DNA from: Escherichia coli | GTDB lineage: Bacteria > Pseudomonadota > Gammaproteobacteria > Enterobacterales > Enterobacteriaceae | DNA length: 64,000 nt | Assembly (NCBI RefSeq): GCF_003334385.1 | Contig: NZ_QOWN01000017.1 | Direction: 5' to 3' (one strand) | Shown here: positions 3,726 through 6,700 of the stretch, piece by piece | How positions within the stretch are numbered: position 1 is the stretch's first letter | How the letters are laid out: each line of letters starts with the position of its first letter | Position numbers: made by a program

Positions 3726-6700
3726 TAATGATGCGCCACATCCGGCATGGTATGCCGGATGTGGCGTATGCTGATAAGACGCGCCAGCGTCGCATCAGGC
3801 AACCGGCTCGGGCGTTAGATGTTGGATGCGGCGTAACCGCCTTATCCAACCTACGGGGTGGAGCACTTCACAGCGGTGTAGGCCTGATAAGACGCGCCAG
3901 CGTCGCATCAGGCAACCGGCTTGGGCGTTAGATGTCGGATGCGGCGTAACCGCCTTATCCGACCTACGGGGTGGAGCACTTCACAGCGGTGTAGGCCTGA
4001 TAAGACGCGCCAGCGTCGCATCAGGCAACCGGCTCGGACGTTGGATGTCGGATGCGGCGTAACCGCCTTATCCAACCTACGGGGTGGAGCACTTCACAGC
4101 GGTGTAGGCCTGATAAGACGCGCCAGCGTCGCATCAGGCAACCGGCTTGGGCGTTAGATGTCGGATGCGGCGTAACCGCCTTATCCGACCTACGGGGTGG
4201 AGCACTTCACAGCGGTGTAGGCCTGATAAGACGCGCCAGCGTCGCATCAGGCAACCGGCTCGGACGTTGGATGTCGGATGCGGCGTAACCGCCTTATCCA
4301 ACCTACGGGGTGGAGCACTTCACAGCGGTGTAGGCCTGATAAGACGCGCCAGCGTCGCATCAGGCAACCGGCTTGGGCGTTAGATGTCGGATGCGGCGTA
4401 ACCGCCTTATCCGACCTACGGGGTGGAGCACTTCACAGCGGTGTAGGCCTGATAAGACGCGCCAGCGTCGCATCAGGCAACCGGCTCGGGCGTTGGATGT
4501 CGGATGCGGCGTGACCGCCTTGTCTGACCTACGGGGTGCCGCACTTCACGGCAGTTTAGCGAACTACCGCGTTGTCAATTTTCTCTTCCGCCTTCCAGAC
4601 GCGGTACTTCACATCTACATTGTCTGGCGTATACACCACGATCGGCAGCTTGCTGTTGTAACGCAGCATTCCAGCATCGCCCAGATACGCGGTGACAAAT
4701 TTCTTCTCTTTCTTGCCATCCGGGCAGGCCATCATCGTTGAAACCGGGGAACTGACTTTATCAAAGACATAATAATCATAGCCCCAGCCTTCCAGCGTTT
4801 TGTTTTCCAGCTTCCCGCCGAGACGATGCAAATTGCAATCGACTTCCAGCGTCTGACCGATTAACAGTTCTACTTTCAGGGTAGATTCATCTTCTTGCGG
4901 GGTTAACTGAATCACCTGACGCTTCATCCCTTTTTCAGCTTGTGGATAAGGCGCGATTTTTTCCAGTGGCTGGACGCTTTCTGCCGCCCAGGCGGAAGTG
5001 GTAGCGAAAGCGGCAAACAATACTGCAGGTAGAATGGTCTTCATTTTTTTGCTTTCCTTCTTCATTTATAGGTTTTCACCGATGATGTCGCTGAAGGTTA
5101 ACATATTCATCAGATTTATTAATTTGCTTTATGAATAACTTAAAGAACATTCAGACAATTTTATCTGCTCTTTTAGTGTTAAATTCTAATGAGAGAGCAA
5201 ACCAGCAGAAATATCTCTGGTGAATCAATCGCTATATAAATATATTTATAACCATTTGAAATGTGAGCAAAAGCCCGTTTTTGCCACGCTTCCCGCCACT
5301 CTTTTGATCCTGCTACAGGTTTTACCCCGATCGGGGTATGCATCTTTGACACATCCTTTAATATCTTAGCGGCTATAAAAATGGCTTATTAATTATGCGG
5401 TTTATTTGGTCGCTCTCAATTTTCAGAGCGCGTTAATGATGGAAGGTCAATGTGAAGATTGATGCATCCCGTCGGGGCATACTCACTGGTCGCTGGCGCA
5501 AAGCCAGTAACGGTATCCGTCCGCCCTGGTCCGGTGATGAATCTCATTTTCTGACCCATTGCACCCGCTGCGACGCCTGTATTAATGCTTGTGAAAACAA
5601 CATTCTGCAACGCGGCGCGGGCGGCTATCCGAGCGTTAATTTCAAAAATAACGAGTGCAGCTTCTGTTACGCCTGCGCGCAGGCTTGCCCCGAATCGCTA
5701 TTTTCTCCGCGCCACACCAGGGCCTGGGATTTGCAGTTCACCATCGGGGACGCGTGCCTGGCGTATCAGTCAGTTGAATGCCGCCGCTGTCAGGATAGCT
5801 GTGAGCCAATGGCAATTATCTTTCGCCCGACGCTCTCCGGGATCTACCAGCCGCAACTTAATAGCCAACTTTGCAACGGATGTGGAGCATGTGCAGCCAG
5901 CTGTCCGGTATCAGCCATAACTGCGGAGTATCTCCATGCACACTAACTGGCAAGTTTGCAGCCTGGTCGTGCAGGCCAAAAGCGAACGAATTTCAGACAT
6001 CAGCACCCAACTGAACGCCTTTCCCGGCTGTGAAGTTGCTGTCAGCGACGCGCCGAGCGGTCAGTTGATTGTGGTGGTGGAAGCAGAAGACAGCGAAACG
6101 CTGATCCAAACCATTGAGTCAGTACGCAACGTAGAGGGCGTGCTGGCGGTGTCGCTGGTTTATCACCAGCAGGAAGAGCAAGGTGAGGAAACACCATGAA
6201 ACTCAGTCGTCGTAGCTTTATGAAAGCTAACGCCGTTGCGGCCGCTGCGGCGGCTGCCGGTCTCAGCGTGCCGGGCGTTGCCCGCGCCGTTGTTGGTCAG
6301 CAGGAAGCCATCAAATGGGATAAAGCGCCGTGCCGTTTCTGCGGTACTGGTTGCGGCGTTCTGGTCGGAACGCAGCAGGGACGTGTGGTGGCCTGTCAGG
6401 GCGACCCGGACGCACCGGTTAACCGTGGCCTGAACTGCATTAAGGGCTATTTCCTGCCCAAAATCATGTACGGTAAAGACCGTTTGACGCAGCCGCTGCT
6501 GCGTATGAAAAACGGTAAATATGACAAAGAAGGCGAATTTACCCCAATCACCTGGGATCAGGCCTTCGATGTGATGGAAGAGAAATTCAAAACCGCCCTG
6601 AAAGAAAAAGGGCCGGAATCGATCGGTATGTTCGGTTCTGGTCAGTGGACTATCTGGGAAGGTTATGCCGCGTCCAAGCTGTTTAAAGCGGGCTTCCGTT

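What the first reader, a model, noticed from the sequence alone, without database searches (positions are those of the whole stretch)
3729..4555. Tandem BIME-2 array of about 7 REP units between mqo and eco
An 827-bp interval consists almost entirely of a 113-bp unit alternating between two variants (226-bp super-period). It is flanked by a perfect 15-bp hairpin at the mqo stop and abuts the eco stop codon. Arrays of this type bind DNA gyrase and IHF and stabilise upstream mRNA, and copy number varies between strains. The near-perfect identity between super-repeats suggests recent expansion or ongoing homogenisation.
Basis: seen in the sequence. Interest (0 to 1): 0.3.

Follow-up and report, generated by a model that had tools for sequence, protein, structure and literature searches.

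The report
Known eco–mqo BIME-2 repeat array
This is the well-known, copy-number-variable block of paired REP hairpin repeats (a BIME-2 array) between the E. coli genes mqo and eco; here it has seven units rather than the six of K-12, so it is real but ordinary.

Summary
Window 3771-4555 holds 6.9 tandem copies of a 113-bp unit, and units 2-6 alternate exactly between two variants, giving a 226-bp super-period. The array lies between convergent mqo (+) and eco (-). An 18-bp hairpin (15 perfect pairs) starts 2 nt after the mqo stop.

Each unit is not one REP but a pair: a z2 REP on the + strand and a y REP on the - strand. That makes 7 BIME units and 14 REPs.

The K-12 homologue has 6 units. 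It is already catalogued as a BIME-2 and is a documented in vivo gyrase target: 6 cuts (Espeli & Boccard 1997) and 11 ciprofloxacin cleavage sites (Sutormin 2019 supplement).

Across 5,426 complete E. coli genomes the locus runs from 1 to at least 8 units. About 60% have a single unit and about 20% have six. Alleles form a series v1-v2-(v3-v2)n-v5, so the array changes in 226-bp steps.

All seven units also pass the Rfam naRNA4 threshold on the eco-sense strand.

Verdict: already known, low interest. Copy number in this particular assembly cannot be verified without reads.

The parts
2082..3728 (+). mqo (malate:quinone oxidoreductase) CDS, transcribed towards the array
   Evidence: 548-aa ORF. 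Annotated as mqo in the identical RefSeq region.
3731..3769 (+). Locus-specific 18-bp stem / 3-nt loop hairpin starting 2 nt after the mqo stop. It has no U-tract. Its 3' arm runs into the degenerate foot of the first z2 REP.
   Evidence: -34 kcal/mol, z = -6.8. Matches in 5418 of 5426 E. coli genomes, one or two places each; the sampled hits lie at the mqo end. No terminator-like site was called.
3771..3883 (.). BIME unit 1 (variant v1). z2 REP at 3771-3800 (+), whose foot is degenerate (GTATGC instead of GTAGGCC). y REP at 3823-3854 (-).
   Evidence: The foot is intact in Escherichia sp. E1V33.
3884..3996 (.). BIME unit 2 (variant v2). The z2 REP with its GTAG foot spans 3878-3913 (+). y REP at 3936-3967 (-).
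3997..4109 (.). BIME unit 3 (variant v3). z2 REP at 3991-4026 (+). y REP at 4049-4080 (-), with a C.A mismatch at the stem foot.
4110..4222 (.). BIME unit 4 (variant v2, identical to unit 2). z2 REP at 4104-4139 (+). y REP at 4162-4193 (-).
4223..4335 (.). BIME unit 5 (variant v3, identical to unit 3). z2 REP at 4217-4252 (+). y REP at 4275-4306 (-).
4336..4448 (.). BIME unit 6 (variant v2). z2 REP at 4330-4365 (+). y REP at 4388-4419 (-).
4449..4555 (.). BIME unit 7 (terminal variant v5, 12-13 differences from the others). z2 REP at 4443-4478 (+). Diverged y REP at 4501-4532 (-). The unit's degenerate end overlaps the eco stop codon.
4537..4553 (-). Small 6-bp hairpin specific to the terminal unit. 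It starts 2 nt after the eco stop on the eco-sense strand.
   Evidence: RNA fold of 4443-4560 (-).
3769..4529 (-). Seven matches to Rfam RF02564 (naRNA4: y hairpin, linker, z2 hairpin), one per unit, on the eco-sense strand: 3769-3851, 3881-3964, 3994-4077, 4107-4190, 4220-4303, 4333-4416, 4446-4529.
   Evidence: Scores 61.9-76 bits against a gathering score of 59.5, full model length. The + strand scores only 37-42 bits.
4556..5065 (-). eco (ecotin) ORF, transcribed towards the array. RefSeq mostly starts it at 5044 (489 nt).

Best explanation
This is the E. coli eco-mqo BIME-2 array. It consists of seven head-to-tail copies of a locus-specific 113-bp unit. Each unit is made of one z2 REP and one inverted y REP, joined by two linkers of about 18-20 and 23 bp. 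The array sits in the 3' intergenic space between the convergent genes mqo and eco.

Shown here: the REP types and their orientation, the tandem structure, its presence at the same locus throughout E. coli, and its variation in copy number.

Shown in the literature for the 6-unit K-12 allele: DNA gyrase cleaves this array in vivo, about once per unit, and cleavage persists when transcription is blocked.

Inferred for this allele:
- The seven y REPs act as a cluster of strong gyrase sites that absorbs the positive supercoils produced by convergent transcription.
- On RNA, the hairpins form structured 3' ends for both mRNAs, blocking exonucleases or attenuating read-through.
- The array length itself is most probably near-neutral. 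It changes by in-register unequal recombination or slippage between identical units, mostly in 226-bp (two-unit) steps. The REP-associated transposase TnpA-REP may contribute.
For: REP identity:
- The z2 REPs equal the published z2 reference GCCTGATGCGACGCTGGCGCGTCTTATCAGGCCTAC exactly (reference in PMC11208160).
- The y REPs differ at 3 of 35 positions from the published y reference. They match the y REP crystallised with TnpA-REP.
- Each REP folds as the expected imperfect hairpin: -20 to -22 kcal/mol, z about -4 to -4.7.

BIME-2 definition: y plus z2 in inverse orientation, in tandem copies, well conserved within a locus and variable in number between strains (PMC3333891).

Literature on the K-12 homologue: a 654-bp 'BIMEs2' interval at eco>-<mqo has 11 Cfx, 7 Rif+Cfx, 2 microcin and 5 oxolinic-acid gyrase cleavage sites, annotated 'Espeli, Boccard 1997: 6 cuts'. 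K-12 has 6 units. Gyrase prefers y REPs, and the BIME-2 signal rises with rifampicin.

Locus specificity: the 37-nt internal junction occurs in 1986 of 5426 genomes, at 1-11 places per genome.

Allele series: 1, 2, 3 (v1v2v5), 4 (v1v2v4v5), 5 (v1v2v3v2v5), 6, 7 and 8 units.

Systematic sample of 60 genomes: 36 with one unit, 1 with two, 1 with three, 2 with four, 5 with five, 12 with six, 2 with seven, and 1 split by IS621.
Against: - No experiment or read-level data exist for this 7-unit allele.
- About 60% of E. coli carry a single unit. The extra copies are therefore dispensable, and any dose-dependent function is unproven.
- I could not obtain the consensus of the canonical S, s, l and r linker motifs of BIME-2. 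Strict motif-level classification (BIME-2 versus 'atypical BIME') therefore rests on the literature's labelling of the K-12 homologue.
- Neither end has a canonical intrinsic terminator, so the roles proposed for the RNA 3' ends are inference.
Confidence: 0.88

Rival explanations
1. The array is a gene cluster for naRNA4-like non-coding RNAs. Read-through from eco would yield seven y-linker-z2 double-hairpin RNAs. Like naRNA4 from REP325, these would bind HU and bridge DNA cruciforms to condense the nucleoid.
For: All seven units match Rfam RF02564 (naRNA4) over the full model on the eco-sense strand, at 61.9-76 bits against a gathering score of 59.5. REP325 has the same plan: six Y-l-Z2 repeats joined by identical 'U' motifs. 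Condensation required an RNA with two hairpins (PMC4550694).
Against: - The Rfam model is essentially a y REP plus a z2 REP, so any BIME-2 unit is expected to match it.
- The linker here is 7 nt longer and differs in sequence (alignment).
- No transcription, processing or HU-binding data exist for this locus.
- Function was shown only for REP325.
- Most E. coli have one unit here.
Confidence: 0.15
2. The array has no host function. It is selfish or neutral repetitive DNA (REP doublets associated with the TnpA-REP/RAYT transposase) that was seeded once at this site. It then drifts in copy number by unequal crossing-over, and gyrase binding is incidental.
For: - Copy number ranges from 1 to at least 8, and possibly 12, with no obvious constraint. 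One unit is the commonest state.
- Unit order is shuffled among 7-unit alleles: v1v2v3v2v3v2v5, v1v2v3v3v2v2v5 and v11v10v10v2v3v2v5.
- Public assemblies of K-12 sublines differ, with 4, 6 and 7 units.
- TnpA-REP cleaves and recombines BIMEs in vitro, and a model exists for BIME amplification.
Against: - At least one unit and the mqo hairpin are retained in essentially all E. coli, and also in a cryptic Escherichia lineage.
- Gyrase cleavage at this locus is strong and independent of transcription.
- This rival is compatible with the best explanation as regards identity. It differs only on whether the extra copies matter.
Confidence: 0.3
3. The seven-unit count is an assembly artefact. The true array in the source strain has a different number of units.
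For: - Exact 226-bp repeats exceed short-read length.
- A hybrid assembly of a K-12 strain broke at this repeat (PMC10044804).
- The XL10-Gold assembly shows an implausibly homogenised v1-v2x5-v5 array.
Against: - The identical 1627-bp region is present in a finished genome, strain 23CRST014. That record may, however, be the source of the window itself.
- The same unit order occurs in an independent DH5a assembly.
- Seven units fall inside the natural range and fit the n = 0, 1, 2 allele series.
Confidence: 0.1

Closest known systems
eco-mqo BIME-2 of E. coli K-12 (MG1655 2304394-2305107; W3110 'BIMEs2 2308874-2309528')
   Same: Same locus, same flanking genes, same mqo hairpin and the same 113-bp unit with y and z2 REPs. 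The first four units and the last unit are identical. It is catalogued as a BIME-2 and cleaved by gyrase.
   Different: K-12 MG1655 has 6 units (v1v2v3v2v4v5, 714 bp). The window has 7 (v1v2v3v2v3v2v5, 827 bp). The window lacks the v4 hybrid unit and has one extra v3-v2 pair. There is also one base difference in the hairpin's 5' flank (G versus A).
REP325 / naRNA1-6 array (yjdM-yjdN), Rfam RF02564 naRNA4
   Same: A tandem array of y-linker-z2 units separated by an identical spacer. Each unit folds into two hairpins, and the units here score above the family's gathering threshold.
   Different: Different locus and different linker and spacer sequences; the linker here is 7 nt longer. There are seven units rather than six. 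No evidence exists here for transcription, HU binding or nucleoid condensation.
BIME-1 / RIB / RIP elements (y + z1 REPs with the L linker that binds IHF)
   Same: Both are built from inverted REP pairs in 3' intergenic regions.
   Different: BIME-1 elements are single-copy, use z1 rather than z2, and carry an IHF site in the L linker. Here the REPs are z2, the array is tandem, and no IHF consensus is present.
RRS (Replication Risk Sequences, 222-bp GC-rich repeats near dusC and lysO)
   Same: GC-rich, structured intergenic repeats of about 222-226 bp in the same third of the chromosome.
   Different: RRS are two dispersed copies at dusC and lysO and contain a G-quadruplex. They are not at eco-mqo and are not REP arrays (PMC10592627).

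Membership tests
REP, z2 class | Imperfect palindrome with a 5' GTAG foot, matching the z2 consensus | tested here: met
   Six exact matches on the + strand to GTAGGCCTGATAAGACGCGCCAGCGTCGCATCAGGC. This is the reverse complement of the published z2 query. A seventh copy at 3771-3800 has an intact stem but a degenerate foot. The hairpin folds at -21.9 kcal/mol with the internal mismatch.
REP, y class | Imperfect palindrome with a GTAG foot, matching the y consensus | tested here: met
   Seven matches on the - strand with 0-2 mismatches to a y pattern. They differ at 3 of 35 positions from the published y query and closely match the crystallised y REP. The fold is -20.2 kcal/mol.
BIME-2 | Made of y and z2 REPs in alternating inverse orientation | tested here: met
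   z2 on the + strand and y on the - strand alternate through all seven units. Definition from PMC3333891.
BIME-2 | Occurs as multiple tandem copies, well conserved within a locus and variable in number between strains | tested here: met
   6.9 copies at 96% identity. The same locus has 1 to 8 units in other genomes.
BIME-2 | Canonical short S linker between REP heads and an s, l or r motif between tails | tested here: inconclusive
   The linkers here are 23 bp on the CTAC...GTAG side and about 18-20 bp on the tail side, and they are locus-specific. The motif consensus papers are not held. Ton-Hoang et al. state that BIME-2 linkers vary in length and sequence. The K-12 homologue is labelled BIME-2 in the literature.
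BIME-2 | Bound and cleaved by DNA gyrase in vivo | not testable with these tools
   Shown in the literature for the 6-unit K-12 allele: 6 cuts (Espeli & Boccard 1997) and 11 Cfx cleavage sites. Extension to this allele is inference.
BIME-1 / RIB-RIP (IHF-binding) | z1 REP plus an L linker carrying an IHF site; single copy | tested here: not met
   The REPs are z2, not z1. There is no WATCAANNNNTTR in 3729-4555. The array is tandem.
Rfam RF02564 naRNA4 | Covariance-model score at or above the curated gathering threshold over the full model | tested here: met
   Seven hits on the - strand at 61.9-76 bits against 59.5, model positions 1-77 of 77.
Rfam RF02564 naRNA4 | Expressed RNA that binds HU and condenses DNA | not testable with these tools
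   Shown only for REP325 (PMC4550694).
Rho-independent terminator | GC-rich hairpin followed by a U-tract | tested here: not met
   No terminator-like sites were found in 3500-5300 on either strand. The mqo hairpin is followed by UAUGCUGAU.

The most novel reading that the evidence does not exclude
The number of units is not neutral. The array would be a tunable element whose length sets how much gyrase, and possibly how much HU with naRNA4-like RNA made from eco read-through, is recruited between two convergent genes. Expansion from 1 to 5-8 units in the K-12-like lineages, and the changes seen between laboratory K-12 sublines, would then alter local supercoiling, act as a topological barrier and change mqo/eco expression.
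Probability: 0.12. Interest if true: 0.4.

Novelty: already known. Interest (0 to 1): 0.12.

Why it matters
It matters little for discovery. The element, its class, its gyrase cleavage and the polymorphism of BIME number between strains are all published.

Practically, it is one of the longest exact repeats in the E. coli backbone. It is a known breakpoint for assemblies, a multi-allelic marker (1 to at least 8 units), and a stack of six exact natural IS621 target sites.

The allele series assembled here gives a clean natural set of 1, 3, 5 and 7 units. That set could be used to test whether BIME-2 dose affects supercoiling or the fate of mRNA 3' ends.

Tried and rejected
- RRS elements (222-bp repeats, Pham et al.): rejected. 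They lie at dusC and lysO and are a different kind of sequence.
- IHF binding: no consensus site in the array.
- Intrinsic terminators at either gene end: none found.
- Protein coding: the 55-78-aa ORFs inside the array merely repeat with the unit. No annotation in any RefSeq record examined covers them. I did not pursue this further.
- The mqo hairpin as a dispersed repeat family: rejected. There is one copy in the window and only one or two matching places per genome; the sampled hits lie at the mqo end.
- Original motif definitions (Gilson 1991, Bachellier 1997) and the list of REPs near stop codons (Liang 2015): these papers are not held. The S/s/l/r assignment and any published entry for mqo/eco could therefore not be checked.
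- Cross-species scan of genome contigs with the spacer pattern: only one hit, Escherichia sp. E1V33 with 3 units. This is too little to date the array.
- Supplement of Qian 2015 listing transcribed REPs: not held.
- An exact genome-wide distribution of unit number was not obtainable because the tool lists only 60 rows. I used a systematic sample and cross-checked it with the junction count: 36.6% of genomes are multi-unit, against 38% in the sample.

Full report
**Observation.** The sequence at 3729-4555 is as described. Tandem Repeats Finder reports a single array at 3771-4549 with period 113, 6.9 copies, 96% matches, no indels and score 1439. Cutting it in register gives seven units:
- v1 starts at 3771.
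- v2 starts at 3884, 4110 and 4336. The three copies are identical.
- v3 starts at 3997 and 4223. The two copies are identical and differ from v2 at 4 positions.
- v5 starts at 4449 and is a diverged terminal unit with 12-13 differences.

The 226-bp super-period is therefore exact, but it spans units 2-6 only.

**Flanks.** The flanking ORFs are mqo (2082-3728, +) and eco (4556-5065, -; usually annotated as 489 nt). The genes are convergent, and yojI and napFDA lie beyond them. The hairpin after mqo has arms at 3731-3748 and 3752-3769. It has 15 perfect pairs, extends to 18, and has a 3-nt loop. Its free energy is -34 kcal/mol with z = -6.8, and it begins 2 nt after the stop codon.

**Anatomy.** Each 113-bp unit is a pair of REPs, not a single REP.
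- On the + strand there are six exact copies of GTAGGCCTGATAAGACGCGCCAGCGTCGCATCAGGC. This is the reverse complement of the published z2 REP query (PMC11208160).
- A seventh z2 stem at 3771-3800 has a degenerate foot, GTATGC.
- On the - strand there are seven y REPs. They differ at 3 of 35 positions from the published y query and closely match the y REP crystallised with TnpA-REP.
- Neither pattern occurs in any of 100 shuffled controls.
- Each REP folds as the expected imperfect hairpin.
- Two linkers join the REPs: about 18-20 bp on the tail side and 23 bp between CTAC and GTAG.

The array is therefore 7 BIME units containing 14 REPs. y plus z2 in inverse orientation and in tandem copies is the published definition of BIME-2. 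BIME-1 uses z1 and an L linker with an IHF site (PMC3333891). No IHF consensus lies in the array, and no intrinsic-terminator-like site lies at either gene end.

**What is already known about this locus.**
- MG1655 has the same array with six units, 714 bp between eco and mqo.
- The supplement of Sutormin et al. 2019 lists a 654-bp 'BIMEs2' interval at eco>-<mqo in W3110. That is one cut per K-12 unit.
- The same paper reports that gyrase prefers y REPs. It also reports that the BIME-2 signal increases when transcription is blocked, so these behave as transcription-independent strong gyrase sites.
- A 2023 paper records that a hybrid assembly of a K-12 derivative broke at the eco-mqo repeat.

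**Population variation.** I searched 5,426 complete E. coli genomes with the two flanks joined. 5,373 genomes have both flanks in one place. A systematic sample of 60 gave the following:

| Units | Intergenic length (bp) | Genomes in sample |
|---|---|---|
| 1 | 147-149 | 36 |
| 2 | 264 | 1 |
| 3 | 375 | 1 |
| 4 | 488-490 | 2 |
| 5 | 601-603 | 5 |
| 6 | 714-716 | 12 |
| 7 | 827-829 | 2 |
| split by IS621 | - | 1 |

As an independent check, the 37-nt internal unit junction is present in 1,986 of 5,426 genomes (36.6%). It occurs at 1-11 places per genome, so arrays of up to about 12 units probably exist.

In the sample, every array of four or more units had flanks at least 98.7% identical to the window. 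Among the more distant flanks, all had one unit except a single three-unit genome. The single-unit group includes O157:H7 strains, and ST131 and ATCC 25922 have single-unit-sized intervals in the first search.

**Allele structure.** Sequenced alleles form a series:
- v1-v2-v5 (3 units)
- v1-v2-v3-v2-v5 (5 units)
- v1-v2-v3-v2-v3-v2-v5 (7 units, the window)
- a parallel series v1-v2-v4-v5 (4 units) and v1-v2-v3-v2-v4-v5 (6 units, K-12)

The array therefore gains or loses the 226-bp v3-v2 pair in register. An 8-unit allele exists in strain C3728. Only nine genomes give a collinear single-piece match to the window's 7-unit allele. A cryptic Escherichia lineage (E1V33) has a 3-unit array at the same place, so the unit predates E. 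coli.

**How it most likely works.**
- Shown in the literature for the K-12 allele: gyrase cleaves the array roughly once per unit.
- Inferred here: the seven y REPs form a cluster of gyrase sites where convergent transcription of mqo and eco piles up positive supercoils.
- Inferred here: the REP hairpins, the conserved mqo hairpin and a small hairpin at 4537-4553 (-), each starting 2 nt after a stop codon, give both mRNAs structured 3' ends.
- REPs are reported to protect upstream mRNA from exonucleases, to attenuate transcription and, when within 15 nt of a stop codon, to stall terminating ribosomes (summarised in PMC12306157). None of this has been tested at this locus.
- About 60% of strains manage with one unit. 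The extra copies are probably near-neutral and arise by unequal recombination or slippage between identical units. TnpA-REP, which cleaves and recombines BIMEs in vitro, is an alternative driver.

**Rivals.**
- All seven units pass the Rfam gathering threshold for naRNA4 on the eco-sense strand, at 61.9-76 bits against 59.5. The architecture mirrors REP325. However, the model is essentially y plus z2, the linkers differ, and there are no expression or HU data here.
- A purely selfish or neutral reading fits the polymorphism, but not the universal retention of at least one unit and the hairpin.
- An assembly artefact in the unit count cannot be excluded without reads. Against it, the same unit order occurs in an independent DH5a assembly.

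**Verdict.** The finding is real and largely correctly interpreted, but it is already known. Three corrections apply:
- There are 14 REPs in 7 BIME units, not 7 REPs.
- IHF does not apply to this class.
- The alternation is exact only over the five inner units.

Interest is low.

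Noticed in passing
L007 (ECCNB20-2) and L012 (2017-02-2CC); window 3878-3888 and the five other z2 feet: In two other strains IS621, the bridge-RNA-guided IS110-family element, is inserted inside this array. Both insertions lie at GTAG|GCCTGAT of a z2 REP, which is the published natural target ATCAGGCCTAC. The window array carries six exact copies of that target.
   Followed up: partly
L001 (MG1655), L015 (DH5a), L009 (XL10-Gold), L004 (TC9/EC600): Public assemblies of K-12 sublines disagree at this array. MG1655 has 6 units (v1v2v3v2v4v5). DH5a has 7, in the same order as the window. XL10-Gold has 7 with five identical v2 units, which may be a polishing artefact. TC9/EC600 has 4. 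This reflects either real change in the laboratory or assembly error.
   Followed up: partly
L014 (Escherichia sp. E1V33), compared with window 3765-3775: In the cryptic-clade genome the first z2 REP keeps an intact GTAGGCC foot directly after the mqo hairpin. In E. coli this foot is degenerate (GTATGC, with one base lost), so the first REP lacks the GTAG needed by TnpA-REP and the IS621 target.
   Followed up: partly
window 3731-3769 and 4537-4553: Both convergent genes have a hairpin starting 2 nt after their stop codon. The mqo hairpin is conserved in 5418 of 5426 genomes. Its arms resemble the 5' arm of a y REP (ATGCCGGATGTGGCG against TGCCGGATGCGGCG).
   Followed up: partly
window 17653-17684 (-) and 24832-24863 (-): Solitary y-type REPs lie elsewhere in the window, with 0 and 3 mismatches to the y pattern.
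   Followed up: no
window 21466-21539 (-) and 25255-25280 (-): The Rfam gathering-threshold scan of the whole window also found a tRNA and the L25 ribosomal-protein leader.
   Followed up: no
window 4556-5065: The eco start is annotated inconsistently in RefSeq. Most records give 489 nt, but ST540, XL10-Gold and DL21 give 510 nt. The longer form corresponds to the upstream ATG at 5065.
   Followed up: no
L016 (Res13-Lact-ER02-39) and L010 (DL21): Other 7-unit alleles have different unit orders: v1v2v3v3v2v2v5 and v11v10v10v2v3v2v5. The same length has therefore been reached by different routes, or some assemblies are imperfect.
   Followed up: no
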